From contig CP066697.1 in NCBI GenBank assembly GCA_016432625.1, forward strand, positions 671,951 to 735,950: 64,000 nucleotides of DNA. The letters are read 5' to 3'. The translations under genes were made by a program, and so were the position numbers. Positions 273-33,231 of this stretch are shown in pieces (position 1 is the first letter of the stretch; the number at the start of each line of letters is the position of its first letter). Below the pieces are notes generated by a model. The model did not search any database. It was not told the origin of the DNA and was given only the letters and a program-made list of their open reading frames with translations. This stretch comes from Candidatus Berkelbacteria bacterium. GTDB taxonomy: Bacteria > Patescibacteriota > UBA1384 > 2-12-FULL-50-11.

Positions 273-1052
273 TTATACTTTCTGATTACTCTGGCGTTTT
301 TGCGCCGCTTCCCAAGCAAGCTCAAAGACGAGCTTCATGTTGTTGGCTATTTCCGGGCTTTGAACTAGGACACCGAGGTAACTACCTTTTTTAAAACTAT
401 AAAACTTCACTCCCCAGTCTGGATGAATCTGCATTGAGACAGTTATAGGGAACTGATGCCGCGGCAGGAAGACAGCTTCGCGAAGCTCCTTTTCGTTGAC
501 TGAATCAGGCATCGGACCGTTCTTGTGAGTGTAGATAACTCGCGTCTTGACACCCATCTTAACGCGATACTCTACGGCGGTTTTTCGCCGGCTAGGAAAC
601 TCTTCTTCGATGATATCGATCGGAATGATCGCAAGCTGCTCTGTTCGATCCTTCAAACTTTCTTGCCCCAGCTTATCCAGAGTTTCCAGACCTTCAGGCC
701 CCTCAAAGTAGCGCACGATCGGTTTACCTTTCTTGGTGTTATAGACGGCCATGAGTTGACTCATCAGGTCATCAAGCTGTGCTCGGCGACCGTCAATCTC
801 CCGTTTCTGCTCCTCGAGGATATTGCCTAGTTCAGTGGGGCTCTCGGCGATAAATTTAGTCTTTTTGTCATGCTCAATTGAGCTGACCAGCCCCAAACCC
901 ATAAGATGCTCTAAGATGACGTAGGTGGTTGCCCGGTTCACGCCCGATTTCTTGGCGATGTTTTGGACGGTATCCTCACCGAGCTCGAGCGTTGCGAGGT
1001 AGACCTTGGCCTCTTTCTCGCTAAGGCCGAGTTTGATTAACGCCTGTTCCAT
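273..1052 (-). CDS. TrmB-family transcriptional regulator (N-terminal winged-HTH)
   Basis: 259-aa ORF with N-terminus 'LSEKEAKVYLATLELGEDTVQNIAKKSGVNRATTYVILEHL', typical of the TrmB HTH domain. Stop TAA at 273-275. It lies directly downstream of the pilus operon. Confidence 0.65.
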   Translation of the reverse strand: MEQALIKLGLSEKEAKVYLATLELGEDTVQNIAKKSGVNRATTYVILEHLMGLGLVSSIEHDKKTKFIAESPTELGNILEEQKREIDGRRAQLDDLMSQLMAVYNTKKGKPIVRYFEGPEGLETLDKLGQESLKDRTEQLAIIPIDIIEEEFPSRRKTAVEYRVKMGVKTRVIYTHKNGPMPDSVNEKELREAVFLPRHQFPITVSMQIHPDWGVKFYSFKKGSYLGVLVQSPEIANNMKLVFELAWEAAQKRQSNQKV

Positions 1053-1107: not shown

Positions 1108-4100
1108 TTACGGCACAATCTCGTAGACCACCGGGTCGCGGCCGAATTGCTTAACGACTTGATAGCCACGCTTAGCGCCGCCGTGATAACCAACTACCTT
1201 GTATGTGTCGGTGGAGGAAAGTGTCAAAGTCGAGTTGAACATGAAAACCAAATCTTCAGGGTCAGGAAGCCAGCTAAGATAGCGAGTAGCGTTTGACTTG
1301 CACTCGAAATCGTCATTACCTTCGCCTGTGTCGTTATAGTAATACTCGGAGCAATAGCTGTACCAGCGTCCACTAGCATCGTTTGAACCTCCTCGTCCTG
1401 CAGCAATAGCTGTGCCGATACCTGCTCCCGTCACAAGGATCGCCCCACCCTGGTTCGCGCCGGAGAAGGTGGTGAAGCCGGCAATCATCATAGTTTTATC
1501 TGAAGTGTAGTTCGTGGTTGTTTTCCCGTAAGGCGCGCCGGCACAACCGTTGCCGGTGTCGCATAAGTACGGATAGTAACCGTCCTGGTCCGAGCGGCCG
1601 TTAGTGGTTGAAGCGGAGTAAGACGAAGCGCCCATAATCATTCGAGCGTCAGCATTCTGATTACGAAATGCGCTACCCGGGTTAAGGACAGCTTTCGTAG
1701 AGCCCCAAGAATAACCACCATAAGTACCGTTAGTGTCGGAGATTCTTCCTAGCAGTCCGATGTGGCGCAGCAGCGGCGAGCTGTCATTGTCACCGGGCTG
1801 ACAGTCCTGACCGACATAGGAACACACCTTAGTGTTGCCGCTAGTGATACCCCCGGGAATCAGTTTGAAGGAGTTCTTAGTGTCGCCGACATCGCCAGTT
1901 TGGGTGAAATTATTGAATACTGTGTTAACCATCCCCGCGGCATCTACCGTTGAGTTGTCGGGCAGATAATACGCGTTATCCGGCTTGGAGAACGTCTCCC
2001 ACTGGGGCTCGCCGAGTAATCTGGGGCCGATATACTTACCGTAATCGCTAGTGGAGCCATCGAACTTCAGTTTGCCACCGAAATGCACTGCTTTGACAAG
2101 GTTATCCTTTTCGTACAGAACTAAACTGCCGCCAAACATATTCGGCAGATCCTTGCTACCGTCGGGTGAGGCCTTGCCGATAATCCAGCGTATGTCTTCG
2201 CTGCCGTTCATCTTGCCAGCGTGATCCATCTTCCAAAGGTCGGCGTAGCGGCCGTAGGTGCCTCCGACGGCGAAGATCTGACTCTTGGTACTGCCCTTGT
2301 TGTAGGTGCTACCGAAACCTCCTGCTTGGCGCGGGCTTGGCCGGTCGTTAACTTCCTGAGCGCCGTTATCGGTGTCAGAAATGCGGATCTGCCATAGAGG
2401 GTTATTATCTTTGGCGTTGGCATACCATTCAGGAGCCCCTTGGCCATAACTTGAGAGCTGATACTCAGCCAGGAAAAGGGCGAACGCGTCGTTACCGTTA
2501 TGTGATACAACAGCGTTACTACCGTAAGCAATTGGTGCCGGACTGGCGTACGGCTGATCGTCGGGATAGAGGCGAAATTCGTTGACACCCGCTTCGTAAG
2601 TTTTATTCTTAACCGTCATTGTATACGCCTCGATGCGATCGTTGTTACCAATAGTGCGCCAAAACATTACCGCCATTCCTGACGAGGGCAACTTGTTCAC
2701 CTCATCGCTCGACAGGTTGCGGAGCTTTAGGTAACCACCAGATGACCAGCGTATCTTGTCAGTACCCCCGTAGATCGCGTAGTCAGTCCGGTAGTAGCTG
2801 AATATCGACAGTTTGGCGTTTTTGCTATGCGTCTTGAGCCCGGAATCATTTGGATTACCTGGGTTATGCCTCAGGCGGATAATGGTGTTGTCGTAGCTGC
2901 CGGTAAAGGTGCTGACGATAATGCCATGAAATGTTTCGCGGACGTTTGGGTTAGGTCCGTCCGGACCGTTTTCACGCTCAATCGTCACATAGGCGCCAGT
3001 AACCAGGCGGCTCGGCGCGATGCTCTCACCACCGCTAGTCGCGATCGTTAGGTCCCAACACGATTGGTTCATGATACATGGCTGTGTATTGTTCCAACTC
3101 AAAGTTTGCGCTCCGGTCTTGGGATCGGTTGAGGCAACTTTGGCTATTTCGGGAGCGCTGGCGCCGTTCTGGGGCGTAAAGATTTGGGCTTCGAAACTGG
3201 GCTTAATAACCTTGAAGTTGTAGTCGTCGTTAGTTGAAGGCGCCGGGTTAGACATCGCTTTAGGCTTGGTTCCCCAAGCAACGCTAGCTTCGCCGCTCGC
3301 AACGCCGTTATTAAACTCCGCCTCCCACATCTCGTTGAAACGAATATTGGTGGCAATATTTTTGGAGTATCCCTGGAAGAGATAGTTAACTTGTTTGTTA
3401 GCCTGAGGGTCGCCAGGCTTAATGTTGATCGCAGCGCCGTAACGACCGACCGGAAAAGCCATCGCCGAATCGCCGGCAAACTTTGACGCCGCATCCGTAT
3501 TGTCGCGAAAGTCTTTCAGTTCGGCTCGGCGTTCATCAAAAGCAAAGTATAGCGTGCCATCTGTCTTTATATGGCTAATGTAGCCGCTTAACACCTGGTC
3601 AATCTTACCTGCCTGGTACTTCTCTAGAACCACTTGATCCCCAACCGCGTAACCGGTGCCATCTCCACTAAGATCACAGGTGTAATAACCACCTGCCGTG
3701 CTGCCAGTACAAGTATCAGCGGCGGCTTGTCGAGTTACAACTTGCATAAACAATTCTTGAAGAACGATCGATGCTGCCCCACGGATATTACCGTGCGCCA
3801 CAATAGTCACGGTGTCGTTGGGGTAATTGACGGCCGTCACCCTGGCCCAAGCGTTAAAGTAGGGTGCGCGGCTGAAAATGTATAGCTCGTCGCCAACCGC
3901 AAGCCCAGCAGCGCTGGGTGACATTTTGATAGTTGTAGCATCGGTGCCATTAACGTTTAGGTTGATTGGCACGGTCGCGTCCGCCCGCGGCTGCCATCTC
4001 CAGCGCTCCAGGCCGGAACGGTCCGCTAAAGTTGAAACAACGCGCACTTTATAACTATCGTTATTTTGGATTTTCTTTGTTGCGTCGAAGTTGTAGTTAA

Positions 4101-6201
4101 TCTTCTCCCAGGAATTGCCAGTTAGAGAATAGGCGTAGATGTCGTTTGTGACCCGTTTAGCAACACGCAAGCCAGCTTGGTTAGTGCCCAAACAATACGC
4201 CTGCGAGACCTCGCAATTAATCTGCCCGGGCGGATCGGTAACGGCAACACCTTCGTGATAATAACCGCCAAATAGGACCAGTCGCTTGTTCTGTTCGTCA
4301 TAAACTAACGACGAGCCAGCTTTCCGACCCGGTGGGGTTACCGTGCTTTGACTCGGGTAAATCCATTGGTCAGCCTCCGGATTATAGAGCCAGAGCTCGT
4401 CTGACTCAGAGTTGTAGCCGCCGTCGTAATCATTCATCGAAATTTCGCCGCCGTAATAAGCGATCATCGGCGTGACGCCGCCGTCAGTAGAGTAAGCTAC
4501 CGCTGCTTGGTGGCGAACAGGTTTCGGATAGATTCGAGCCCGGTCAATTGTGAAGCCGTTGATGCTGGTGCCGGCGAAGTTAACACTTTTAACTTGACCC
4601 CAGAAAGGCGTGGCCCCAGTTTTATTTAAGCTGACAACGTCGCCGACCGCCGGGCAAGCCGACAGCGTCGCGCTAATCGTGCAACTAGAGCTACCGTTCA
4701 GGGATAGGTCAATGCCGTCGTTACCGTTATCGTTTATAGTCAAGCCACTCATAGAAATTTTCGTCGAAAACTGGGCGTTATTTCCGGTTAGTACGATCGA
4801 GTCTAGATCCCCCCACGTGATGGCGGAACCGCCGATCTTATTGGGCGTATGATACGAATTCGGGCCGAGCTTGATCTTAACTGTTGTTGTATTGCCGGCA
4901 ACGCTAACTTCTGTCACCGATGCTTCGTAAAGTTTGCCTTGGTCGCTGGAGCGCTGTTCCAGCAGTAACGGCGTCTTCTGGCCACGTTGCAAGACGGTAA
5001 GTGATAGTTTTTTATTGAGACGAATGCCTTCCATCGAGCCGTAGAGAAGGCCTGTTATTGTCGCGCCTGGAGTGAGCTGAACGCCGTTCTGGCTATTGGC
5101 CAGCTTAACGAACGAGAACGGCCGGCTGCCTCGGACAATATCCACGTCCCAGTTATTACTGCCGCTTGAGCCAGTTAGGACCGGTCGATTCTTTTTTACC
5201 CAAGGCTTATTTGGCGTGTCGTTGATGTCGTCCGTCTTGTAGGCGCCCCCTAGGTCCTCTTCCGGCAAATCGTTCCATAACGACGGCTGAAGCCAGCTTA
5301 CTCGGTACTCATTGCTATCGGTGAATAGATCGCCCAAACCGTATTCTTGTAAAACGTTGTCCTTGACTGAGGCGTCTAGCCAAACCTTGAAGTTATTATT
5401 TCTGATCGTTGACTCAAACTGGGTTTTAATATCGTTGGCGCTGATCCGATCTACTCCAGTTGTGGAGCCGCCGCTTGTCACTAACGCCGTATCAACCCAG
5501 CGCGGCAGGTAGGGAATGTACAGGAAATCTAGCCCCTCGTAGTAAGAGCCAGAGCTGTCAGTATTTTTACGCGTCAGAAACTCATCTTCTGGGCCACCCA
5601 TTTTAATTGTCCAGTACCCCCTGTAGCTCTGCTGCTCTGTGGCCGGCGCGTACGGGTTATAGAAATGCCCCATCTTGGTTAGCTCGCTTATCGGCAAAAG
5701 CTTGTCACTTTCGGCACTGATTGAGCCGTTTTCAGGAATGGAGCCGAGCGGCGTATCGTTAATGATATTAGCGTAATAGAAAATCATCGCCGGGTTAGAC
5801 GGGTCGTCATCTTGGAACAAATACTTACCGCCGTTAGTCCACGGCGAGAGTACGGCTACCGATAAGCAGCGTGGTAGGGCGGTTGAGGCCTTCTCGTAGC
5901 TACTAACGATACTGCGCGGACTTGGTTTGTATTTCGTTAGATCAACCCCGGTACTTTCTTGGTTTTTGTCGAGATCGTAAATCGTCGGGTCAACCGCCGT
6001 CCCTAACTCAAGCTTCTCTTTGAGTTTGGCTAGTCCCGAGTCGGCGGCAAGTTTGGCAACGGCGGAGTTATTAATCTTGTCTGTCGAGCTTAATTGGTCG
6101 AAACGAATTGCCACAGCGCCAAGGGTGGTGGTTGTCAGGACAGCGATAACCATCACGGTTAAAAGCAAAATTGAGCCAGGTTTTAAGGTCGAGTTATTCA
6201 T
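1108..6201 (-). CDS. Giant (1697 aa) pilus-associated surface protein: PilX_N-like N-terminal hydrophobic segment plus Kelch-type beta-propeller repeats (candidate PilX/PilY1-like tip adhesin)
   Basis: Single uninterrupted ORF. N-terminus 'KPGSILLLTVMVIAVLTTTTLGAVAI' resembles the PilX_N domain but lacks the G|FxxxE prepilin cleavage motif. Kelch-like motifs include 'LVYDEQNKRLVLFGGYY' and 'GGTYGRYADLWKMD...SLVLYEKDNLVKAVHFGG'. The start overlaps the upstream pseudopilin stop (TAAgccATG). Confidence 0.6.
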   Translation of the reverse strand: MNNSTLKPGSILLLTVMVIAVLTTTTLGAVAIRFDQLSSTDKINNSAVAKLAADSGLAKLKEKLELGTAVDPTIYDLDKNQESTGVDLTKYKPSPRSIVSSYEKASTALPRCLSVAVLSPWTNGGKYLFQDDDPSNPAMIFYYANIINDTPLGSIPENGSISAESDKLLPISELTKMGHFYNPYAPATEQQSYRGYWTIKMGGPEDEFLTRKNTDSSGSYYEGLDFLYIPYLPRWVDTALVTSGGSTTGVDRISANDIKTQFESTIRNNNFKVWLDASVKDNVLQEYGLGDLFTDSNEYRVSWLQPSLWNDLPEEDLGGAYKTDDINDTPNKPWVKKNRPVLTGSSGSNNWDVDIVRGSRPFSFVKLANSQNGVQLTPGATITGLLYGSMEGIRLNKKLSLTVLQRGQKTPLLLEQRSSDQGKLYEASVTEVSVAGNTTTVKIKLGPNSYHTPNKIGGSAITWGDLDSIVLTGNNAQFSTKISMSGLTINDNGNDGIDLSLNGSSSCTISATLSACPAVGDVVSLNKTGATPFWGQVKSVNFAGTSINGFTIDRARIYPKPVRHQAAVAYSTDGGVTPMIAYYGGEISMNDYDGGYNSESDELWLYNPEADQWIYPSQSTVTPPGRKAGSSLVYDEQNKRLVLFGGYYHEGVAVTDPPGQINCEVSQAYCLGTNQAGLRVAKRVTNDIYAYSLTGNSWEKINYNFDATKKIQNNDSYKVRVVSTLADRSGLERWRWQPRADATVPINLNVNGTDATTIKMSPSAAGLAVGDELYIFSRAPYFNAWARVTAVNYPNDTVTIVAHGNIRGAASIVLQELFMQVVTRQAAADTCTGSTAGGYYTCDLSGDGTGYAVGDQVVLEKYQAGKIDQVLSGYISHIKTDGTLYFAFDERRAELKDFRDNTDAASKFAGDSAMAFPVGRYGAAINIKPGDPQANKQVNYLFQGYSKNIATNIRFNEMWEAEFNNGVASGEASVAWGTKPKAMSNPAPSTNDDYNFKVIKPSFEAQIFTPQNGASAPEIAKVASTDPKTGAQTLSWNNTQPCIMNQSCWDLTIATSGGESIAPSRLVTGAYVTIERENGPDGPNPNVRETFHGIIVSTFTGSYDNTIIRLRHNPGNPNDSGLKTHSKNAKLSIFSYYRTDYAIYGGTDKIRWSSGGYLKLRNLSSDEVNKLPSSGMAVMFWRTIGNNDRIEAYTMTVKNKTYEAGVNEFRLYPDDQPYASPAPIAYGSNAVVSHNGNDAFALFLAEYQLSSYGQGAPEWYANAKDNNPLWQIRISDTDNGAQEVNDRPSPRQAGGFGSTYNKGSTKSQIFAVGGTYGRYADLWKMDHAGKMNGSEDIRWIIGKASPDGSKDLPNMFGGSLVLYEKDNLVKAVHFGGKLKFDGSTSDYGKYIGPRLLGEPQWETFSKPDNAYYLPDNSTVDAAGMVNTVFNNFTQTGDVGDTKNSFKLIPGGITSGNTKVCSYVGQDCQPGDNDSSPLLRHIGLLGRISDTNGTYGGYSWGSTKAVLNPGSAFRNQNADARMIMGASSYSASTTNGRSDQDGYYPYLCDTGNGCAGAPYGKTTTNYTSDKTMMIAGFTTFSGANQGGAILVTGAGIGTAIAAGRGGSNDASGRWYSYCSEYYYNDTGEGNDDFECKSNATRYLSWLPDPEDLVFMFNSTLTLSSTDTYKVVGYHGGAKRGYQVVKQFGRDPVVYEIVP

Positions 6202-6204
6202 GGC

Positions 6205-7245
6205 TTAAGTTGGCCCAGGTGGCCCTGGCGGTGGCGCTTCCTCTCCGCCCTCTTCGCCGCCACCCTCTTCGCCTCCACCACCGCCGCCACCTCCACCGCC
6301 GCCAGCGGCGATCTCAAACGTTAAGTCTTGAACGTCAACCAACTGGGGATTGGTGCTATCGCGCAGAGTGACGGTGATACTTACGGTTCCTGCGACAGTA
6401 GGCGTACCCTGCAATACGTACTTATTGCCCTGCTGTGTAAGAGTGAGGTTGGGGAAAGATCCCAGGTTGCCAGTGTGACTCCAAGAGTAAGGCAGCTTAC
6501 CACCCTCGCCGATAATTTCTTTACTATACGGCTCATCGACAGTGCCGTTTGGCATCGCTGTGGTGGCGATATTAACCGGAATAATCCCCGTACCGATAAG
6601 GCCGATAGGCAGAGCGCTCGTGACTGTCGTCGACGAAGTTTTTGTCTCCTGAGCTCGTCCGCTTTGCTGCAAGGTTAATTCTAAGGTGAAGGAGTAGCGC
6701 AGCTGTTGCTTTGTGGCGCAGTTAGCTGACGGATCGCAATCATATGAGTTAAGTTGAGCTTGAAAATTAGTCACCTTCACCTGCTTACTCGAAAGGCGAT
6801 TTTGGTAAATCGGCATTGTTGCTAGGTCTGGGCATTGCAAGGCTGAATCGACCTTATAAACCCAGTAAGCGATAGTGTCGCCAGTAGTGTCAATGGTGTA
6901 TAGCTCTTGGTTACTAGCGTCAACCGCTGCTTTAGCGCGGCCAACGACTTCACAGGTATTGCGGTTCTGGGCCGTTGAAAAGGCCTCAATACGAACACCA
7001 GCAAAAGCATCGGGATTTGTGTAATAGCCTTGCAAATCGACGGCGCCTACAGGTGCATTTGAGGCAATCCGCCGCATGGTGTCCGTGACTGAACGAGCTG
7101 ATTCAGTAATTGAAGAGCGGGCATCGGTCCGAGAGACGAGGCTGTTTGTGCCGACTGTGGCAACTAGCGCCACAGTGACGGCGACCATAAAAAGCCCGAT
7201 GCTGACAACGATCTCGATTAACGTAAAACTTGGCTTAATTTTCAT
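6205..7245 (-). CDS. Prepilin-type (class III signal) pseudopilin with C-terminal Ig-like (He_PIG-type) domain and Gly/Glu/Pro-rich tail
   Basis: N-terminus 'MKIKPS|FTLIEIVVSIGLFMVAV' has E at +5. Internal 'LPNGTVDEPYSKEIIGEGGKLPYSWSHTGNLG...LQGTPTVAGTVSITVTLRDS' matches the putative-Ig-domain pattern. C-terminus is 'GGGGGGGGGGGEEGGGEEGGEEAPPPGPPGPT'. A GGAG RBS sits 7 nt upstream. Confidence 0.7.
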   Translation of the reverse strand: MKIKPSFTLIEIVVSIGLFMVAVTVALVATVGTNSLVSRTDARSSITESARSVTDTMRRIASNAPVGAVDLQGYYTNPDAFAGVRIEAFSTAQNRNTCEVVGRAKAAVDASNQELYTIDTTGDTIAYWVYKVDSALQCPDLATMPIYQNRLSSKQVKVTNFQAQLNSYDCDPSANCATKQQLRYSFTLELTLQQSGRAQETKTSSTTVTSALPIGLIGTGIIPVNIATTAMPNGTVDEPYSKEIIGEGGKLPYSWSHTGNLGSFPNLTLTQQGNKYVLQGTPTVAGTVSITVTLRDSTNPQLVDVQDLTFEIAAGGGGGGGGGGGEEGGGEEGGEEAPPPGPPGPT

Positions 7246-7248
7246 GGC

Positions 7249-7713
7249 TTACTCCAATAATTGGCTAGAGACAACGCTCCTGTTAGCGCCTTTACCCCAA
7301 GTCGTTTTAGCAACCACAAGATAGTTATTACCGGTATTAATCACATTAATTTCCGGCACAAATTGTAACCGACTACGACCTAGCTGCACGGGTTTAGGAT
7401 CGGCGTTCAAGGTGCAGTTTTGGGCTAAGTTATCTTGTGAACAGGCCACGTAGCAAGTCTCCCCAAGCACGCAGGAGCTTTCATACGTTTGCTTGAAGGT
7501 GTCGCCCAGGCTCTCGCGGAGAATTGTTACATACGATAGGCTCTGCTCGTTCAAGGCATACGCCGCGCCTTTAGTTTCGGCGGTAGTTACTAGACGGGAA
7601 GCGGCTGAGTTTAGCGACGACATCGCCACTCCAACCATAATCAAAAAGCTGACCGCGAAGACAACTTCAATCAGGCTGAAAGCCTTTTTACGCCTAGCTA
7701 GATCGTGGTGCAT
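7249..7713 (-). CDS. Prepilin-type N-terminal cleavage/methylation domain protein (pilin/pseudopilin, 154 aa)
   Basis: Leader 'MHHDLARRKKA|FSLIEVVFAVSFLIMVGVAM' has E at +5. A GAGGGG RBS sits 6 nt upstream. Its size is consistent with a major-pilin-like subunit. Confidence 0.75.
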   Translation of the reverse strand: MHHDLARRKKAFSLIEVVFAVSFLIMVGVAMSSLNSAASRLVTTAETKGAAYALNEQSLSYVTILRESLGDTFKQTYESSCVLGETCYVACSQDNLAQNCTLNADPKPVQLGRSRLQFVPEINVINTGNNYLVVAKTTWGKGANRSVVSSQLLE

Positions 7714-9083
7714 TCTTGCCCCTCAGTAGGTATCGCTAAGCGCCACCGTTGATAAATATTTCTAATTCCCCTCAGGTCAGCAACTCGACCAAAACGATTT
7801 CGGTTATAAGCCTGCTGTTGCGCACAGTTGTAGAGGATCACCCCTGGATCGGTCGGATCATCAAGATCAACGACATCGTCTTCGTCCTTGACGCTTCCTT
7901 GGCCACAGTCAATTGTGAAAGTCTTCTGTCGCTGACGTTCGACATCAAACGCTGCTTGATACGGGTCCTGAAGATTGCCGGCTTCATCCGAGGCGGCCAC
8001 ATTGACTACCACCTGGAACTGCTGATGCGACACCGATATCAAAGTCGTCTCGAAGGTGTACTGAACCCTTTCAAAGCCAGGACGGATATCGTAAAAGTAG
8101 CGGATCGCCAGCGGCCTAAACAGCGGCTGGCCGTTAGCCATCTCGCCGTTAACTTGCCAGCTTATGTCGTAGTAGACTGCTAGGTTCGGATCCGGGTCAT
8201 TTGGGTCAGTGACCCGATCCTCAGCCCGGGGGTAGCTTAGCGTGACGACGCTGGGGCCGCCGTTACCGCAACGCAAGTTCAATATGAAGTCAGCTTGATC
8301 GATGCCTACGTCACTCCACTTCGGCTTCAGACTGTCGGAAAACGCGGTAAAGAAGTCCTGAGGATTAACTTTGGCGACAGTTATCTCGCTGGTTTGCCGA
8401 TCGATAACGACGTAGCGTTTTTCGGTTAACTTTTGGGCACTAACAGTTATTACTAGGTAACGTGCTCGTGCCTCGCCAGCAGATTTGGACAATTTGCCTA
8501 TCCAGGAGGCGTTATTGAAGTCGGTCGAGTCGATATTGGGGTTTGAGGCGTTACCGCAGTTGAAGCCGATCTTGCCAACCGTGAAACGCACCACCGCCTT
8601 GACGTCACCTGCTGCGTAGTTGGCAGGGAAAAACGAGGAGATGTAAATATTACGCGGCAGTTTGAGTTCGCGAAGACGGGCGAAGCCGCTTTGAGTATCG
8701 CTAGGATCGCAGCGCGCCGCCCCACGCTCTAGGTAAAGCTGATTGGTGCTTGCTGACCCAGTGAAGGTGTAGTTAGCGGCTTGACCGGATTTAAAGTCCC
8801 CGATTGAAACTTGGTAAACTTGCCCGAGAGCCCCTGTATCCTTGCCCGTAGGCGCTAAGGATCTTGTCTTGGCATCGATTAAGAGCTGCCGGACTCGATT
8901 GGCGCTAGTGTCCAGACTCAGCCTGTCGTTACGGCCGAAGATATTCGGCAAGCTTGCCAGGCTAATCAGGGTGATTACGGCCAGTACAACTAAAAGCTCG
9001 ATAAGGCTGTAGCCTTTTTGCGGGGCTGGGGAGCGGCTGATGGGTTTACCAACTCTGGATATCATCGAGCTTGGCATCGACAT
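7698..9083 (-). CDS. Large prepilin-type pseudopilin (minor pilin, about 460 aa)
   Basis: Contains 'QKG|YSLIELLVVLAVITLISLASL' with E at +5. The ORF is open to 9146, but internal Met codons at 9083, 9077 and 9065 are the plausible starts. It overlaps the upstream pilin gene end, so the start is uncertain. Confidence 0.6.
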   Translation of the reverse strand: MSMPSSMISRVGKPISRSPAPQKGYSLIELLVVLAVITLISLASLPNIFGRNDRLSLDTSANRVRQLLIDAKTRSLAPTGKDTGALGQVYQVSIGDFKSGQAANYTFTGSASTNQLYLERGAARCDPSDTQSGFARLRELKLPRNIYISSFFPANYAAGDVKAVVRFTVGKIGFNCGNASNPNIDSTDFNNASWIGKLSKSAGEARARYLVITVSAQKLTEKRYVVIDRQTSEITVAKVNPQDFFTAFSDSLKPKWSDVGIDQADFILNLRCGNGGPSVVTLSYPRAEDRVTDPNDPDPNLAVYYDISWQVNGEMANGQPLFRPLAIRYFYDIRPGFERVQYTFETTLISVSHQQFQVVVNVAASDEAGNLQDPYQAAFDVERQRQKTFTIDCGQGSVKDEDDVVDLDDPTDPGVILYNCAQQQAYNRNRFGRVADLRGIRNIYQRWRLAIPTEGQECTTI

Positions 9084-10032
9084 TATCGCAAGTCGTAGTA
9101 TTCGCCCGCCAGGCATTACTGCTGTAAGTAATCGGCTCGTTGGCACTTAGTGATCGGTCGTCTCGCTTAATATCGCCGGCGACAGTCTTGCCGTTGCATT
9201 GATAGAGGTACTTGCCGTTCAGGATCTGCCGCAAGCCGCCAAAAGTTGTGAAGAAGAACTCATTTGCGGTTCCCCCAAAAACTGAGTCGGAGTCGGAGTC
9301 GTCATCAAGGTGGCGCACCGTACCGCCGCTACCTAAGTAATAGCGTTTCTCCGCTTGAGCAGAAGAGTTGAATAAGTACTTCGGCTCGGTGTCGTTGGTA
9401 TTCTCAAGCTTTGCGCCAACCAGTACGTCAACATAGTCGTAAGATACTCGGTATTGGTAACCGTTGAGGCTAGTTGAGCCATATGTTGGGTCGCTAACTA
9501 GCCGATCGACGTACTTTAAGCAGGTCAGGAAGTGGTTCACGGCCGTAAAGCCTGGCTTCAAGATGGCGTTGTCGTAATCGCTTGAAGCGGTGGTAAAATC
9601 CGTCGCGACAGAGAAGTTCGTTGGATTGCCGGCGCCGCTCAAGCCTTCACAGCCGGCGATATCTGTACCTAGATCTAGGCTGGAGGTTGCGGCACCGGTG
9701 TCAGTAGTATTCTTGCCCAAGTAAAAAGTATGGTTCGGATAAAGCTTAAAGTCGGTTTTAAATAGATCGAGTCCGGCTAAGTACAGATTGAGATCGCTCT
9801 TACGTCTAGCGTCACGAGACTTTAGCTGAATCGGGCGTATGGTTACGGTAACCAGGGTAATTAAGATGCCGATAATCGAGATGACAAGTAAAAGCTCGAT
9901 AAGGGTGAACCCGTTACGCGGTAAACTCGAAATCCGAAATCCGAAATTTGAGACAATACCTAATTTCGAAATTTGAAATTTAAAACGTTTAGAGTTTGTT
10001 TCGGCTTTCGTGCTTCGTGCTTCGTGCTTCAT
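9046..10032 (-). CDS. Prepilin-type pilin/pseudopilin (328 aa) with unusually long 40-aa leader built from heptanucleotide repeats
   Basis: Classic 'RNG|FTLIELLLVISIIGILITLV' motif. The only canonical in-frame start is ATG 10030-10032, only 7 nt after the pilC stop. The leader is encoded by tandem repeats (ttcgtgc x3, cgaaatc x3). Confidence 0.7.
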   Translation of the reverse strand: MKHEARSTKAETNSKRFKFQISKLGIVSNFGFRISSLPRNGFTLIELLLVISIIGILITLVTVTIRPIQLKSRDARRKSDLNLYLAGLDLFKTDFKLYPNHTFYLGKNTTDTGAATSSLDLGTDIAGCEGLSGAGNPTNFSVATDFTTASSDYDNAILKPGFTAVNHFLTCLKYVDRLVSDPTYGSTSLNGYQYRVSYDYVDVLVGAKLENTNDTEPKYLFNSSAQAEKRYYLGSGGTVRHLDDDSDSDSVFGGTANEFFFTTFGGLRQILNGKYLYQCNGKTVAGDIKRDDRSLSANEPITYSSNAWRANTTTCDNVDAKLDDIQSW

Positions 10033-10039
10033 AATTTAA

Positions 10040-11173
10040 TTAAAACTGCCCCGTTAGATTGTAGATTGGTTGCAGTACAGAGATCACAATGAAGCCCACA
10101 GCCCCTCCTAATAAGACAATAATAAACGGTTCGACGAGCGAAGAAAACGTCCTAAGCTTGGCGTCTACCTCGGTTTCAAAATACTCCGCCAAAGTGCTGG
10201 CTGAGCCGCCGAGGTCGCCGGACTGCTGCCCAACCAGTAAAAGCTGCGTCATGAGCTTTGGGAAGTAACGGCTTTTTTGCAAAGTCGACGAGATCGCCGC
10301 GCCTTGTTCAAGCGAGGTGCGTAGCTGTTTAAGCGAGCGTGTGAAGATCGTGTTCGTTGTTGAGTCGGCAATAATATCCACCGATTCAATAATCGGCACG
10401 CCGGCGCCGATCAGTAAAGCCAGCGTTCTGTTAAAGCGCGCTAAGTAAACTTCTCGGGTTAACCCGCCGAAAATCGGGAAGTTTAGCGCCAAATAGCTCA
10501 CTGTATCCTTGCCAGCACGTGTCAGCGTAAAAAGTTTAACTGCTACGACCAACCCGACGATAATGGCAATAAGGTAGTACCACTGGTTAATAAGAAAATC
10601 TGTAAACGCCAGCAACATTTGGGTCGAGATCGGCAAATCGGACCCGGTGGATTCGAAGATGTCTTTGATCGGCGGAATGACTCTGGTTAGGATGACGAAC
10701 CCTACGATAACCATAACCACCAAGATGAACGCTGGGTAAATCATGGCGCCGCGGACCCGGCTAATAAACTCGGCGGTTCGGGCCGTGGTCACCGAAAGTT
10801 CGTCGAGCACTTTGCTCAAATTACCGGTCGCCTCACCAGCACGGATAACGCCGATCTCCACCTCGGGGAAAGTTTTGGGGTGCCCGGACATTGCCACGGA
10901 TAGCGGGAAACCATTCTCCAAGCTTTTATAGACTTCGCGCATCACGGCTTTCAGCTTGCGGTTTGGTGTTTCGGCAGCGATATCAACCGCTTGGGTAATG
11001 CCGACGCCGGCTTTAAGCATCGTCGAAACTTCTCGGTACATAATCGACCGATCTTTAGCGTTTACCTTACCTATACTGAGGTGGGCCAAACCCTTTTTTT
11101 GTTCGACAACAGAAATGATCGTGTAACCGCGTTCTTCTAAAAGTTTGCGTACGGAAACAGCTTCGTACGCCAA
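10040..11173 (-). CDS. pilC: Type IV pilus assembly platform protein PilC / GspF family
   Basis: 377-aa ORF with a GspF-domain architecture of multiple TM helices and two cytoplasmic repeats. The listed start is TTG. The conserved N-terminal motif 'FRYKVKDGHGKIKSG' is encoded in-frame upstream of it without a canonical start. Confidence 0.75.
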   Translation of the reverse strand: MAYEAVSVRKLLEERGYTIISVVEQKKGLAHLSIGKVNAKDRSIMYREVSTMLKAGVGITQAVDIAAETPNRKLKAVMREVYKSLENGFPLSVAMSGHPKTFPEVEIGVIRAGEATGNLSKVLDELSVTTARTAEFISRVRGAMIYPAFILVVMVIVGFVILTRVIPPIKDIFESTGSDLPISTQMLLAFTDFLINQWYYLIAIIVGLVVAVKLFTLTRAGKDTVSYLALNFPIFGGLTREVYLARFNRTLALLIGAGVPIIESVDIIADSTTNTIFTRSLKQLRTSLEQGAAISSTLQKSRYFPKLMTQLLLVGQQSGDLGGSASTLAEYFETEVDAKLRTFSSLVEPFIIVLLGGAVGFIVISVLQPIYNLTGQF

Positions 11174-11307
11174 AGCTTGGCCAGATTTAATCTTACCGTG
11201 GCCATCTTTGACCTTATAGCGAAAATGTAGTTTATGCGGTTTCTTTGCCGTGTCGCCCTCCCTTCACAATAGTAGTGGAACACAACGCCGTTGGCTAGAA
11301 GAACATT

Positions 11308-11862
11308 TTGCCTAAAAAGCCTTACCGCGTTTTCTGTTACACTTTATGCAAGATGGTAATCGAGGCGAGTAGTATTATGGGCGCGCCGGTCGTGGACGTA
11401 ACCGGCCGTAAAGTTGGATCGGTTGATACGTGCGTTTACCGTTCCGACGAGGCGCGGCTTTTTGCCCTGCAAGTGGCGCGCGGCGCCGTAGTTTCTAAAT
11501 TTGGTGGGCTACTAATTGACAGTGTCTTATCTGTAGGAGCGAAGGGCGTCGTGATTGATTCGGCTGAAGAGATAACCAATGACCTTAAAAACCTCGACAA
11601 GATAGCTAAAGAATCTGGCCCTGTCGTCGGCGTCAACGCTGTGACCGAGTCTGGCAAACAGCTCGGCAAAGTTTTCGATCTCCTACTCGACGCCGACACC
11701 GGTTTTATTGTCCGTTTCTACTTACGGCGCCATATCTTAAACGAGCGAATCATCCCTCGCCAATTCCTAGTAAGCATCACGCCAAGACAGGTAGTTTTTC
11801 GCGATGTCGTCGATACTCCGGTCTTTGACCAGCTCGCCCAAACAGAGGCCACCCCGGCTTAA
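11308..11862 (+). CDS. PRC-barrel domain protein (two PRC-like repeats); likely true start at ATG 11374
   Basis: Two repeats resemble PRC barrels: 'GAPVVDVTGRKVGSVDTCVY' and 'VVGVNAVTESGKQLGKVFDLLLDADTGFIVRFYL'. A GAGG motif lies 12 nt before ATG 11374. Confidence 0.4.
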   Translation: MPKKPYRVFCYTLCKMVIEASSIMGAPVVDVTGRKVGSVDTCVYRSDEARLFALQVARGAVVSKFGGLLIDSVLSVGAKGVVIDSAEEITNDLKNLDKIAKESGPVVGVNAVTESGKQLGKVFDLLLDADTGFIVRFYLRRHILNERIIPRQFLVSITPRQVVFRDVVDTPVFDQLAQTEATPA

Positions 11863-12188
11863 TGGTTACGATCGAGGACTGGCAGAAACTAGACGTTCGT
11901 ATCGGCACGATTATTAGCGCCGAACTTGTGCCAGAGACCGATAAGCTGGTGAAATTCGAGATCGACCTGGGATCGGAGAAGCGGCAAATAGTTGGTGGTT
12001 TTGCCCCGAGTTACCCAGATCCAAAGGCGTTAATTGGCAAACAAGTGCCAGTGCTCTGCAACCTCGAGCCGAGGACTCTTCGCGGTCTTGAATCTAACGG
12101 CATGGTTCTCGCCGCTTCCACAACCGAAGGCGGCCCGGCGGCGCTTCACCCAGACCAGTTCGTAGCCAACGGTACCGTGGTTCGATAG
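11862..12188 (+). CDS. tRNA-binding protein (CsaA / Trbp111 / MetRS C-terminal-like OB-fold domain)
   Basis: 'WQKLDVRIGTIISAELVPETDKLVKFEIDLGSEKRQIVGGFA...LIGKQVPVLCNLEPRTLRGLESNGMVLAAS' matches the tRNA-binding EMAP/CsaA domain pattern. Confidence 0.75.
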   Translation: MVTIEDWQKLDVRIGTIISAELVPETDKLVKFEIDLGSEKRQIVGGFAPSYPDPKALIGKQVPVLCNLEPRTLRGLESNGMVLAASTTEGGPAALHPDQFVANGTVVR

Positions 12189-32040: not shown

Positions 32041-33231
32041 TTAATTACTACCTTCTTCATCGCTGCTCGCAAGCCCGGCTAACATTAGCGTCATCCAGAT
32101 CGCGGCTTGGCCGGTGTAATGGTTCAGGAAGATCCCGGCGACAACCAAGCCGATACTGGCAACGAATGCGCCATCGGCGAGCGCGGTGCGGCGATTTGCC
32201 AGATGAACAAGCAACAAGACCCAGAACAACGGGTAAAGCAGGCCGCCAAATACTCCCAAACCTTCGTACATATCTAAGTAAGTGTTTTCGGTAAACCGGT
32301 TCTCTCCGCCGTCTAGGCGATCCTGGGAAACGGGGCCAGTTGAGCCAGGGCCGCGTCCAAGCCAGCCGATTTCGTCAGTATGGTCGAAAAGCCGTTCGTA
32401 CTGCTGCGAGCGGATAATTGTCGAGTCCTCCCGGATTAAGGACGCTGGTACCAGCCAAAAAGCAGCGGCGGCGGCAAACACGCTAATCGCTAGGCCAATC
32501 AGAGCCCCTCGAGCAAGCCTCGGCGCACGCGAACGATATAGCGCTGTTGCCGCGATTAGCCCTGCGACAAGCCCCAGCGCGGCGCTTCGGGCCACCGTCA
32601 AGACAAAGGCTACCGCCAGGATGATAAGTAGCGGCATGCCGTAGCGTTTAGCGATACTTCGCCAGGCGCCCCAACTTAAGATACCGACCATCAGATAGAG
32701 GCCGAGCGCGTTCGGACCAGCCAAGAGCGACTGCATTCGCGGCAAGCCGGCTGCCTTGTGATAGTCGCCCAGATACCCTCGGCCAAGTTCGTTTAACGTA
32801 ATACGGAAGGCTGCGGGAAAGATATACTCGAGGAACCCGAGAATCGCCACTCCGCCCAAAGTAAAAGCAAACGTTTTTAGCGCCATGGCCTTAAACTCGG
32901 GGCTCCACTGCGCCCGCGCAATTACGAGATAGAGTAGTAGCGGCTCGCCGAGATAGCGCACGGCGCGCAACCATTGGTTCAGCTCTTCGCCACGCCAGAA
33001 GTAGCTCAAGACAAGGTTTATTAGAAGTAGCAAGGCAACCCATGCGGCAGGTCTAAAGCGCAAAGTTAGCGGTAGGGTAATTATTAAGCCGAGTAACAAT
33101 ATGTCCCGGCCGAACGACAGGCCAGATGTGCCGAAAAAACTAACCAACCAAGCACTGAGGGGGAGGAAAACAATCAGGGCAATCAGGAGTTGCCCTGCGA
33201 GGGGCCGGCGAGTGCTGGCTTCTTGAATCAT
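32041..33231 (-). CDS. O-antigen ligase/polymerase (Wzy_C)-like multi-pass membrane protein
   Basis: 396 aa with about 10 predicted TM helices and a large periplasmic loop. It is adjacent to glycosyltransferases. Confidence 0.55.
   Translation of the reverse strand: MIQEASTRRPLAGQLLIALIVFLPLSAWLVSFFGTSGLSFGRDILLLGLIITLPLTLRFRPAAWVALLLLINLVLSYFWRGEELNQWLRAVRYLGEPLLLYLVIARAQWSPEFKAMALKTFAFTLGGVAILGFLEYIFPAAFRITLNELGRGYLGDYHKAAGLPRMQSLLAGPNALGLYLMVGILSWGAWRSIAKRYGMPLLIILAVAFVLTVARSAALGLVAGLIAATALYRSRAPRLARGALIGLAISVFAAAAAFWLVPASLIREDSTIIRSQQYERLFDHTDEIGWLGRGPGSTGPVSQDRLDGGENRFTENTYLDMYEGLGVFGGLLYPLFWVLLLVHLANRRTALADGAFVASIGLVVAGIFLNHYTGQAAIWMTLMLAGLASSDEEGSN

What the first reader, a model, noticed from the sequence alone, without database searches (positions are those of the whole stretch)
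1108..11307. Stand-alone type IV pilus minor-pilin/tip-adhesin operon headed by pilC, without ATPase or alignment-complex genes
One minus-strand transcription unit (11173 down to 1108) encodes PilC, four proteins with class-III prepilin signals (NG|FTLIE, KG|YSLIE, KA|FSLIE, PS|FTLIE), and a 1697-aa protein with a PilX_N-like N-terminus and Kelch beta-propeller repeats. Genes overlap or are separated by 3-7 nt, indicating translational coupling. The organisation resembles the fimU-pilVWXY1E minor-pilin/PilY1 priming module of Pseudomonas, but it is fused to pilC. Two pilins are unusually large (346 and about 460 aa). pilB/pilT/pilM-Q and the prepilin peptidase are absent from the window. A TrmB regulator sits immediately downstream. 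This is the most unusual system in the window.
Basis: partly seen in the sequence, partly recalled or inferred. Interest (0 to 1): 0.8.

Follow-up and report, generated by a model that had tools for sequence, protein, structure and literature searches.

The report
Pilus gene set with giant tip pilin
An uncultured ultra-small (Berkelbacteria, CPR) bacterium carries a conserved six-gene cassette for a type IV pilus: the membrane platform, the filament subunits, and a 1,697-residue tip protein that probably grips a host cell. It is a new variant of a pilus type already shown to mediate host attachment in related bacteria.

Summary
On the minus strand, 1108-11251 holds six tightly packed genes: PilC, four prepilins and a 1,697-aa protein. 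No pilus ATPase, PilM/N/O or prepilin peptidase lies anywhere in the 64 kb.

- The organism is a Candidatus Berkelbacteria MAG. The same cassette, in the same chromosomal neighbourhood, occurs in at least 14 related loci, and none has an ATPase within 10 kb.
- It is not only a minor-pilin module. The first pilin resembles major pilins (GspG/PilA type). The next three resemble H-, I- and J-type minor pilins. The gene order therefore matches the classical gspF-G-H-I-J-K / comGB-GG order without the ATPase gene.
- The giant protein takes the K/PilX position. It has G/A at -1, lacks Glu5, and its N-terminal profile reaches bona fide PilX_N proteins. Its extreme C-terminus carries the closing beta-hairpin motif of small PilX-type pilins.
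- TrmB belongs to a lineage-specific insertion and is not part of the module.

The closest known analogues are Saccharibacteria PilX2, CpaL/TadG and GspK. I judge it a new variant of a known kind, of moderate interest.

The parts
10040..11251 (-). pilC (GspF/PilC-family inner-membrane platform protein). It is annotated from TTG 11173 (377 aa). The probable true start is ACG 11251-11249, giving 403 aa.
   Evidence: Two T2SSF domains, E 2.6e-50; TIGR02120 GspF E 2e-81. The 26 in-frame codons upstream of the TTG encode the canonical PilC N-terminus (HFRYKVKDGHGKIKSGQA). A GGGAGGG Shine-Dalgarno sequence precedes an ACG that sits where orthologues have TTG or ATG. Orthologues of 403 aa align over 100% of the extended protein at ~80% identity.
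9046..10032 (-). pilin1: a 328-aa prepilin (NG|FTLIELLLVISIIGIL..., mature ~287 aa, 4 Cys). Candidate major pilin (GspG/PilA-like).
   Evidence: N_methyl 29.3 bits; TIGR02532 30 bits; GspG E 4e-8. A profile of 10 orthologues hits only major pilins in the PDB: Geobacter PilA-N 9.5e-11, Myxococcus PilA 8e-7, Thermus PilA4 6e-6 over 105 residues, GspG 2e-5.
7698..9065 (-). pilin2: a 455-aa prepilin (KG|YSLIELLVV..., 6 Cys). Minor pilin in the H position.
   Evidence: N_methyl 26.3 bits. Among orthologues, GspH hits 5/10, XpsH 4/10 and ComGD 3/10, all below family cut-offs. Its start overlaps the end of pilin1 by 20 nt.
7249..7713 (-). pilin3: a 154-aa prepilin (KA|FSLIEVVFAVSFL..., 4 Cys). Minor pilin in the I/PilV position.
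   Evidence: Among orthologues, PilV TIGR02523 hits 8/10 and XpsI 6/10, below cut-offs. The motif is conserved in all loci. It overlaps pilin2 by 16 nt.
6205..7245 (-). pilin4: a 346-aa prepilin (PS|FTLIEIVVSIGLF..., 4 Cys). Minor pilin in the J/PilW position, with a variable C-terminal Ig-like (He_PIG/PKD) region and a Gly/Glu/Pro tail.
   Evidence: Among orthologues, T2SS protein J (PRK08808) hits 10/10, Verru_Chthon cassette protein C 9/10, N_methyl 10/10, and He_PIG 6/10 (best 3e-36). The PDB profile hits Ig-like adhesin and PKD domains. Length varies from 210 to 557 aa between genomes.
1108..6201 (-). Giant K/PilX-position protein (1,697 aa, 15 Cys). Proposed tip pilin-adhesin.
   Evidence: 38 full-length homologue clusters, all from Berkelbacteria/Patescibacteria. 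It is always the last gene of the cassette.
6007..6177 (-). Giant protein residues 9-65: a pilin-like hydrophobic N-terminal alpha1 helix with G/A at -1, Ser +1 and Leu (not Glu) at +5. PilX_N-like.
   Evidence: AF2 predicts a helix at 9-65. The conserved motif is (G/A)S.LLLTVM..LTTTTLG..A.RFDQL.STD...N..VAK.AADSGL. A profile search of 1.84e9 proteins reaches small proteins of which 17/47 are Pfam PilX_N (best 1.8e-7).
2002..4479 (-). Giant protein residues ~575-1400: a six-bladed Kelch beta-propeller whose blades are interrupted by small beta-barrel insertions that carry repeated '(A/G)vGD.V' motifs.
1111..1212 (-). Giant protein residues 1664-1697: conserved C-terminal motif D.TYKVVGY(Y/H)GG.KRGY.V ... 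V.EIVP. Proposed closing beta-hairpin and terminal strand of the split pilin fold.
   Evidence: The motif is conserved in all homologues, including distant ones. It aligns with the C-terminal motif C(I/V)KS(V/I)G.(Y/F)...(K/R)RA(I/L).(V/I) of 17/33 small PilX_N-type pilins. Those pilins had been found through the N-terminus only. hhalign P = 1.8e-4; reversed control P = 0.35.
11252..11376 (.). 125-bp divergent intergenic region between pilC and the PRC-barrel gene. It presumably holds the promoter and the Shine-Dalgarno sequence of pilC.
   Evidence: Sequence. No sigma-70 consensus match was found there, so the promoter is inferred only.
11377..11862 (+). PRC-barrel protein gene, a conserved divergently transcribed neighbour of pilC. 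Any link to the pilus is unknown.
   Evidence: PRC E 2.4e-8. The same neighbour is present in the loci.
273..1052 (-). TrmB-family regulator 55 nt downstream of the giant gene. It is not a conserved member of the cassette.
   Evidence: TrmB HTH E 6.7e-15. Relatives have EF-P on the opposite strand at this position. In this genome, TrmB, a 1.8-kb gene-free stretch and four small ORFs separate the giant gene from EF-P.

Best explanation
This is the filament cassette of a type IV pilus of a Berkelbacteria-lineage CPR bacterium.

It encodes:
- the inner-membrane platform PilC;
- a large major-pilin-like subunit (pilin1);
- three Glu5-bearing minor pilins in H-, I- and J-like order;
- a 1,697-aa K/PilX-type subunit.

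Proposed mechanism:
1. A prepilin peptidase encoded elsewhere cleaves the prepilins. (Inferred.)
2. The H/I/J-like pilins and the K-type giant form the initiation complex on PilC. (Inferred.)
3. An extension ATPase (PilB), encoded more than 10 kb away, then polymerises pilin1 underneath. The giant subunit ends up at the pilus tip. (Inferred.)

The giant protein appears to be a PilX-type pilin fold split in two. The N-terminal alpha1 helix and first strands are separated from the C-terminal closing beta-hairpin and terminal strand by about 1,500 residues. That insert is a disulfide-rich ectodomain containing a six-bladed Kelch propeller decorated with beta-barrel insertions. One polypeptide would thus do what PilX/PilK plus PilY1 do in Pseudomonas or Neisseria, and what CpaL does in Tad pili. 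The propeller would be the host- or surface-binding head. Glycan binding is a guess.

Shown here: gene content, order, conservation, pilin signals, the Kelch propeller, and the PilX_N and C-terminal motif relationships.

Inferred: pilus assembly, tip location, fold-back of the C-terminus, adhesin function, and the identity of pilin1 as the major subunit.
For: Gene content and order:
- PilC is unambiguous.
- There are four class-III prepilin motifs with Glu5, conserved in every orthologous locus.
- The pilin1 profile hits only major pilins and GspG over a long alpha1 helix.
- The best family resemblances follow the H, I, J order: GspH/XpsH/ComGD for pilin2; PilV/XpsI for pilin3; T2SS-J in 10/10 for pilin4.

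Giant protein:
- It is always the last gene. It has G/A at -1 and Leu at +5, and a predicted alpha1 helix at residues 9-65.
- An exhaustive profile search with its N-terminus retrieves small proteins of which 17/47 are Pfam PilX_N (best E 1.8e-7). This is the only recurrent non-Kelch family.
- Two of these small proteins, where context was available, sit directly after I- and J-like prepilin genes. That is the position the giant occupies here.
- 17/33 of the small proteins end in a motif that aligns with the giant's C-terminal motif (hhalign P 1.8e-4 against 0.35 for the reversed control). This evidence is independent of the N-terminal search.

Extracytoplasmic location: the giant has 15 Cys, including 7 closely spaced pairs. 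The pilins have 4, 6, 4 and 4 Cys. PilC and TrmB have none.

Conservation: the cassette and its chromosomal neighbourhood recur in 14 loci, including distant giants with N-terminal E values of only 3e-13 and 5e-10.

Precedents:
- In Saccharibacteria TM7x, the T4P-2 pilins lie in a locus separate from the machinery. PilX2 has a non-canonical signal peptide and a beta-propeller, and is needed for host binding but not for filament formation (PMC12206443).
- In GspK and CpaL, the protein's own C-terminal strand completes the N-terminal pilin-like sheet, and a large middle region is tolerated (PMC12918778, sections 5 and 10).
Against: - No ATPase, PilM/N/O or prepilin peptidase was seen in the window, or within 10 kb of the cassette in any relative. 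Their presence elsewhere in these genomes rests on literature statements about CPR in general (PMC6744442), not on a check of this genome.
- All H/I/J/K family matches are below curated cut-offs. The direct PilX_N hit of the window protein is insignificant.
- The last ~300 residues were modelled at pLDDT below 50. The N- and C-terminal parts were never modelled together, so the fold-back is untested.
- The C-terminal motif similarity spans only 19 columns.
- Pilin3 and pilin4 of the window have Ala and Ser at -1 instead of Gly.
- Pilin1 is large for a major pilin, and no expression data exist.
Confidence: 0.68

Rival explanations
1. It is a Com-like or T2SS-like short pseudopilus for DNA uptake or secretion, not an adhesive pilus. 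The cassette would be the comGB-GC-GD-GE-GF-GG equivalent, and the giant protein a tip DNA or substrate receptor.
For: The gene order is identical to comGB-GG and gspF-K. Weak NCBIfam hits to ComGC/GD/GE/GF and GspG/H/I/J occur. CPR bacteria are thought to depend on DNA uptake, and ComEC is widespread in them (PMC6744442, PMC13293708).
Against: No ComG or Gsp family cut-off is reached. A 1,600-aa disulfide-rich ectodomain with a Kelch propeller, plus Ig-like domains on the J-like pilin, fit adhesion better than DNA binding. No DNA-binding domain was detected. CPR cells lack an outer membrane for a T2SS. In TM7x the analogous PilX2-bearing pilus is dispensable for competence (PMC12206443).
Confidence: 0.12
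2. The cassette encodes only minor pilins plus a tip adhesin (a fimU-pilVWXY1-type priming module). The true major pilin would be encoded elsewhere, next to pilB/pilT.
For: All four pilins are unusually large or elaborate, whereas major pilins in TM7x are small (PMC12206443). Four E5 pilins plus a non-E5 protein could be read as H, I, J plus an extra minor pilin. No expression data exist.
Against: The pilin1 profile matches major pilins and GspG along alpha1 far better than the pilin2-4 profiles do (9.5e-11 against 1.7e-5 or nothing). The G-H-I-J-K order directly after the platform gene is the canonical position of the major (pseudo)pilin. No other prepilin motif exists in the 64 kb.
Confidence: 0.2
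3. The giant protein is not a pilus subunit. It is a membrane-anchored surface adhesin (N-terminal signal anchor) that is merely co-transcribed with pilus genes.
For: The direct PilX_N match is insignificant. No structural match of residues 66-555 to any pilin was found. TM7x PilX1 and PilX2 also lack predicted PilD sites.
Against: The position after the J-like pilin is strictly conserved, with 3-nt spacing. Residue -1 is restricted to G/A. The N-terminal profile links transitively to PilX_N. The C-terminal motif is shared with small PilX-type pilins. A plain signal anchor would not need either conserved feature.
Confidence: 0.1

Closest known systems
Saccharibacteria (Nanosynbacter lyticus TM7x) T4P-2 pilin locus three with PilX2 (Grossman et al., ISME J 2025, PMC12206443)
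   Same: It is a CPR type IV pilus whose pilin genes (one major pilin, several minor pilins, and a large PilX with a non-canonical signal peptide and a C-terminal beta-propeller) lie in a locus separate from the ATPase and alignment genes. PilX2 is proposed as the tip adhesin for host binding.
   Different: Here the platform gene pilC travels with the pilins. The PilX-type protein is ~1,700 aa, with a six-bladed Kelch propeller (TM7x has a seven-bladed RCC1 propeller) and many inserted barrels. The other pilins are also much larger. No sequence comparison with the TM7x proteins could be made, and nothing here is experimentally tested.
T2SS gspF-gspGHIJK and Gram-positive comGB-comGCDEFG operons (GspK/ComGG as the E5-less tip subunit)
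   Same: The order is the same: platform, major (pseudo)pilin, then H-, I-, J- and K-type subunits. The K-type subunit lacks Glu5 and supplies its own C-terminal strand (PMC12918778).
   Different: The ATPase gene (gspE/comGA) is not adjacent. No Gsp or ComG family model reaches its cut-off. The subunits are 2-10 times larger. There is no outer-membrane secretin context.
CpaL/TadG of Tad pili (Caulobacter), as described in PMC12918778
   Same: It is a large minor-pilin-like tip protein. It has an N-terminal pilin-like domain, a long dispensable middle region, and an extreme C-terminal beta-strand that folds back to complete the pilin sheet.
   Different: It belongs to a different filament class (Tad/T4c). 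CpaL is ~600 aa. No sequence homology was shown. The fold-back here is inferred from a sequence motif, not modelled.
FimU-PilVWX + PilY1 (Pseudomonas) / PilHIJK + PilC (Neisseria) priming complex
   Same: A core minor-pilin set plus a large propeller-bearing tip adhesin that primes assembly and mediates adhesion.
   Different: PilY1/PilC are non-pilin proteins with Sec signal peptides and a PilY1-type propeller. They dock through a C-terminal strand in trans. Here the adhesin and the K-type pilin appear to be one polypeptide, the propeller is of Kelch type, and there is no PilY1 family hit.
Modular pilins of Streptococcus sanguinis (PilB, PilC; PMC8179133, PMC9934059)
   Same: These are monoderm-type T4P in which pilins carry grafted adhesive or lectin modules.
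   Different: Those modules are appended to complete, canonical E5 pilins of ~50 kDa. Here the module is ~1,500 aa and seems inserted within a K-type fold.

Membership tests
Type IV filament (T4F/T4P) system | GspF/PilC-family polytopic platform protein | tested here: met
   T2SSF x2, E 2.6e-50, 170 bits against a cut-off of 25.2.
Type IV filament (T4F/T4P) system | Subunits with a class-III (prepilin) signal peptide, a hydrophobic alpha1 helix and Glu5 | tested here: met
   Four proteins carry the motif. N_methyl and TIGR02532 are above cut-off for two of them. The motif is conserved in all orthologues.
Type IV filament (T4F/T4P) system | PilB/GspE-family extension ATPase | tested here: not met
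   None in the 64-kb window, and none within +-10 kb of the cassette in 14 related loci. The rest of the genome could not be searched with these tools.
Type IV filament (T4F/T4P) system | Prepilin peptidase (Peptidase_A24) | tested here: not met
   No hit in the window ORFs. A genome-wide check was not possible. Reported as widespread in CPR (PMC6744442).
Core minor-pilin set GspH-I-J-K / FimU-PilV-W-X | Syntenic H, I, J, K order, with three E5 pilins followed by an E5-less K-type subunit | tested here: met
   Order and E5 pattern. Best-resembling families follow H, I, J.
Core minor-pilin set GspH-I-J-K / FimU-PilV-W-X | Family HMMs (gspH/I/J/K, PilV/W/X) above curated cut-offs | tested here: not met
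   All hits are far below cut-offs, for example PRK08808 at 15 bits against 295 and TIGR02523 at E 3e-4. No T2SSK hit.
PilX_N (PF14341) proteins | Pfam PilX_N match at the N-terminus | tested here: inconclusive
   Direct: 7.8 bits, E 4.5 for the window protein; best E 0.13 in 4/22 orthologues. Transitive: 17/47 remote hits of the N-terminal profile are PilX_N, best E 1.8e-7.
PilY1 / Neisseria PilC tip adhesins | PilY1-type C-terminal propeller domain and a Sec-type signal peptide (non-pilin) | tested here: not met
Kelch beta-propeller | Six-bladed propeller with Kelch repeat signature | tested here: met
ComG competence pilus operon | comGA ATPase adjacent; ComGB-GG equivalog models matched | tested here: not met
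   No ATPase adjacent. ComGB 128 bits against a cut-off of 240. ComGC/GD/GE/GF hits are all below cut-offs.
CpaL/GspK-type self-complementing tip pilin | The protein's own extreme C-terminal beta-strand completes the N-terminal pilin-like sheet | not testable with these tools
   There is only motif evidence.
TM7x PilX2-type adhesin pilin | Sequence or structural homology to TM7x PilX2 | not tested
The resemblance is architectural only (PMC12206443).

The most novel reading that the evidence does not exclude
The 1,697-aa protein would be the largest pilin-type subunit described. It would be a single polypeptide in which a PilX/GspK-type pilin fold is split by a ~1,500-residue host-recognition machine (a Kelch propeller with inserted barrels) and re-closed by its own C-terminal hairpin. 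This would merge the PilK and PilY1 roles. Together with its dedicated pilC and filament subunits it would form a vertically inherited 'filament cartridge'. That cartridge would plug into a remotely encoded motor and would determine host range in Berkelbacteria.
Probability: 0.4. Interest if true: 0.62.

Novelty: new variant of a known kind. Interest (0 to 1): 0.5.

Why it matters
Type IV pili are the one surface machine shared by nearly all CPR/Patescibacteria. In the only cultivated models they mediate host capture. Berkelbacteria have no cultured member.

This cassette gives a concrete candidate for their host-recognition organelle. It also names a specific protein, and a propeller domain within it, to test for receptor binding.

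Mechanistically, the giant protein would be a natural, extreme example of the 2026 'beta-strand complementation' model of tip-complex licensing. In that reading, the K-type pilin and the adhesin are one chain with a 1,500-residue insert.

The finding also shows that in this lineage the platform gene segregates with the filament genes rather than with the motor genes. In addition, pilC is routinely mis-called because of non-canonical start codons.

Tried and rejected
- Direct Pfam and PDB-sequence searches with the giant's N-terminus gave only an insignificant PilX_N hit and a spurious poxvirus OPG161 match.
- The afdb50 library was unavailable.
- The last ~300 residues were modelled at pLDDT below 50, so the C-terminal domain is structurally unresolved.
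- PilY1 homology was considered and rejected: there is no family hit and the propeller is of Kelch type.
- TrmB as a dedicated regulator was considered and rejected as a conserved feature, because its position is not conserved and it lies in an insertion here. TrmB genes do recur near the cassette in L016 and L018.
- Promoter and terminator scans gave hit counts equal to shuffled expectation. They say nothing about the transcription unit.
- tRNA and Rfam scans of the window found nothing.
- I could not locate pilB, pilT, pilM or pilD, or exclude a second pilC. None of those 120 is an obvious same-contig paralogue.
Full report
**What is there**

The minus strand of window 1108-11251 carries six closely packed ORFs. 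Pfam and NCBIfam identify the first as a GspF/PilC platform protein: two T2SSF domains at E 2.6e-50, and TIGR02120 at E 2e-81.

A six-frame regular-expression scan finds these four and no others in the 64 kb. N_methyl and TIGR02532 exceed their cut-offs for pilin1 and pilin2. They are sub-threshold for pilin3 and pilin4, but the motif is conserved in every orthologue.

The last ORF encodes 1,697 aa. Consecutive genes are separated by a 7-nt gap, a 20-nt overlap, a 16-nt overlap, a 3-nt gap and a 3-nt gap. A TrmB-family gene follows after 55 nt.

**Source and conservation**

The giant protein is identical to a hypothetical protein of a Candidatus Berkelbacteria MAG (locus tag HZB70_03475, 768,791-bp contig). 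It has 38 full-length homologue clusters (29-63% identity), all from Berkelbacteria or Patescibacteria.

Loci were fetched through exact-protein look-ups and a scan of GTDB species genomes. Wherever the contig allows, they show the same arrangement:

- a divergently transcribed PRC-barrel gene;
- pilC;
- a ~300-aa pilin;
- a ~440-aa pilin;
- a ~150-aa pilin;
- a variable 210-560-aa pilin;
- the 1,600-1,800-aa protein.

Downstream usually lie EF-P, S18, SSB and S6.

Two much more distant giants have N-terminal profile E values of only 3e-13 and 5e-10. They sit in the same cassette and the same neighbourhood. The module is therefore old and vertically inherited in this lineage.

PilC is its most conserved member, at 60-82% identity among orthologues. 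There is a sharp drop to 35% or less for other PilCs.

**Is it stand-alone?**

- No PilB/PilT Walker A motif occurs in the window.
- Pfam scans of 40 further ORFs find no T2SSE, PilM/N/O or Peptidase_A24. They find housekeeping genes and a large glycan-biosynthesis region instead.
- None of the related loci has an ATPase within 10 kb on either side.
- Ten more kilobases to the left of the window hold none either.

I could not search the rest of the genome. That the motor genes exist elsewhere is therefore inferred from the reported near-universality of pilB, pilT, pilM, pilN, pilO and pilD in CPR (PMC6744442, PMC13293708).

**What the pilins are**

I built profiles from ten syntenic orthologues of each pilin.

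- **Pilin1** hits only major pilins and GspG in the PDB, over a long stretch of alpha1. The hits are Geobacter PilA-N 9.5e-11, Myxococcus PilA 8e-7, Thermus PilA4 6e-6 over 105 residues, and GspG 2e-5.
- **Pilin2** hits are weaker and confined to the first ~35 residues. Its members resemble GspH (5/10), XpsH (4/10) and ComGD (3/10).
- **Pilin3** members resemble PilV (8/10) and XpsI (6/10).
- **Pilin4** members resemble T2SS protein J (10/10). Most carry C-terminal He_PIG or PKD Ig-like domains, best E 3e-36.

All of these family matches are below curated cut-offs, so they indicate resemblance and not membership. Even so, the order G-H-I-J directly after the platform gene is the order of gspF-GHIJK and comGB-GCDEFG.

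Being 'headed by pilC' is therefore the ancestral layout minus the ATPase gene. The cassette most likely includes its own major subunit.

**What the giant protein is**

*N-terminus.* It starts with a conserved hydrophobic segment: (G/A)S.LLLTVM..LTTTTLG..A.RFDQL.STD...N..VAK.AADSGL. Residue -1 is G or A, and +5 is Leu rather than Glu. AF2 (27 sequences, mean pLDDT 74) predicts a helix at residues 9-65, followed by beta structure.

A direct PilX_N match is insignificant. I therefore ran an exhaustive HMMER search of 1.84 billion representatives with the N-terminal profile. It finds the family, five more distant giants, and about 42 small proteins matched at their N-termini. Of these 47 remote hits, 17 are Pfam PilX_N (best E 1.8e-7). 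PilX_N is the only recurrent family besides Kelch.

Context was available for two of the small proteins. Both follow I- and J-like prepilin genes directly. That is the position the giant occupies here.

*C-terminus.* 17 of 33 small proteins end with C(I/V)KS(V/I)G.(Y/F)...(K/R)RA(I/L).(V/I). All the giants carry D.TYKVVGYYGG.KRGY.V about 15-30 residues before a conserved V.EIVP end.

Profile-profile alignment of the two C-terminal regions gives P = 1.8e-4 over 19 columns. A reversed control gives P = 0.35. The small proteins were found through their N-termini only, so this is independent evidence.

The giant therefore seems to contain both ends of a PilX-type pilin fold, separated by about 1,500 residues.

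The blades are interrupted by small barrels that carry repeated '(A/G)vGD.V' motifs. The giant has fifteen cysteines, including seven closely spaced pairs. The pilins have even numbers of cysteines. PilC and TrmB have none. This pattern fits an extracytoplasmic location.

Residues 66-555 match no known fold. The last ~300 residues were poorly modelled.

**Mechanism**

The best-supported reading is a type IV pilus filament cassette. PilC and the H/I/J-like pilins, together with the K-type giant, nucleate assembly. A remotely encoded PilB polymerises pilin1. The giant remains at the tip as an adhesin.

Two precedents make this concrete.

- In Saccharibacteria TM7x, the T4P-2 pilins are encoded away from the machinery. 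PilX2 has a non-canonical signal peptide and a propeller. It is required for host binding but not for filament formation or competence (PMC12206443).
- In GspK and in the ~600-aa Tad protein CpaL, the subunit's own extreme C-terminal strand completes its N-terminal pilin-like sheet, and the middle region is dispensable. In T4aP the same strand is donated in trans by PilY1/PilC (PMC12918778, sections 5 and 10).

The Berkelbacteria protein looks like an extreme CpaL/GspK-type solution. The fold-back itself, the tip location and the adhesin function are inferences.

**Rivals**

I considered three:

- a Com/T2SS-like pseudopilus;
- a co-transcribed but pilus-independent membrane adhesin.

None is excluded, but each fits fewer observations (see the rival entries).

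**Novelty**

Type IV pili in CPR, split loci, and propeller-bearing PilX-type adhesins are known. New here are:

- the 1,700-aa split K-type subunit with a Kelch propeller;
- the consistent pairing of pilC with the filament genes, away from the motor;
- the large size of every subunit.

The family is annotated only as 'hypothetical protein'. I rate it a new variant of a known kind, interest about 0.5.

**Side observations**

- pilC probably starts at a non-canonical ACG (11251-11249).
  - The 26 upstream in-frame codons encode the canonical PilC N-terminus, and a GGGAGGG Shine-Dalgarno sequence precedes the ACG.
  - Orthologues have TTG, ATG, ACG or ATA/CTG at that position, and 403-aa orthologues align end to end.
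  - Many database entries for this PilC are truncated to 326-377 aa.
- TrmB lies in a ~4.7-kb insertion relative to other genomes.

Noticed in passing
window 11173-11266 (minus strand): pilC has no ATG, GTG or TTG start for its conserved N-terminal 26 codons. A GGGAGGG Shine-Dalgarno sequence is followed by ACG at 11251-11249, where orthologues have TTG or ATG. L006 also has ACG, and L008 has ATA/CTG. Gene callers therefore truncate this PilC: many database clusters are 326-377 aa instead of ~403 aa.
   Followed up: partly
window ~30900-62500: A large glycan or polysaccharide biosynthesis region. It contains several GT1/GT2/GT4 glycosyltransferases, two Wzx-like flippases, two AsnB-like amidotransferases, a DegT aminotransferase, UDP-glucose dehydrogenase and an epimerase. 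It also has three Wzy_C (O-antigen-ligase-like) proteins at 32041-33231, 60060-61250 and 61243-62493. Wzy_C enzymes include pilin O-glycosyltransferases, so a link to pilin or surface glycosylation is conceivable but untested.
   Followed up: no
window 11377-12188 (+): A PRC-barrel protein, followed by a stand-alone tRNA-binding (CsaA/MetRS-C-like) protein, is transcribed divergently from pilC. The PRC-barrel gene keeps this position in every related locus examined. Any functional link to the pilus is unknown.
   Followed up: partly
L022 10781-14567 (just left of window position 1): Between TrmB and the conserved EF-P/S18/SSB/S6 block, this genome has a ~1.8-kb stretch with no called gene and then four small ORFs (105, 125, 99 and 195 aa) without Pfam hits. 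Relatives have the giant gene directly next to EF-P, so this looks like a lineage-specific insertion.
   Followed up: no
window 6205-6310 (minus strand; C-terminus of pilin4): Pilin4 ends in a low-complexity tail, GGGGGGGGGGGEEGGGEEGGEEAPPPGPPGPT. The C-terminal half of this pilin is the most variable part of the cassette (210-557 aa between genomes), with zero to several He_PIG or PKD Ig-like domains.
   Followed up: partly
window 7680-7683 and 7227-7230; loci L002-L015: Pilin3 and pilin4 have Ala or Ser rather than Gly at position -1 of the prepilin cleavage site in this and several related genomes. Ser at -1 is unusual for prepilin peptidase substrates.
   Followed up: no
L005 3564-3660: In one relative, pilin1 carries a duplicated prepilin motif (MPRRAFTLIELLMPNRRFGRGVRKNGFTLIELLI). 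This suggests a small tandem duplication or an upstream remnant at the 5' end of the gene.
   Followed up: no
L016 3086-3859, 18703-19437, 22243-23019; L018 3692-4468; window 273-1052: TrmB-family HTH regulators recur near the cassette in several genomes, but at different positions and in different copy numbers (three in 25 kb in L016). This may simply reflect an expansion of TrmB regulators in these genomes.
   Followed up: no
window 36766-38817 (+), 40663-41688 (-), 55344-56387 (+): Sizeable ORFs (683, 341 and 347 aa) inside the glycan region have no Pfam match at E of 1e-3 or better.
   Followed up: no
L020 and L021: In other CPR contigs, the small PilX_N-type pilin that ends a run of prepilin genes is followed directly by an NAD-dependent DNA ligase (LigA-like N-terminus). 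The same adjacency is seen in two unrelated samples.
   Followed up: no
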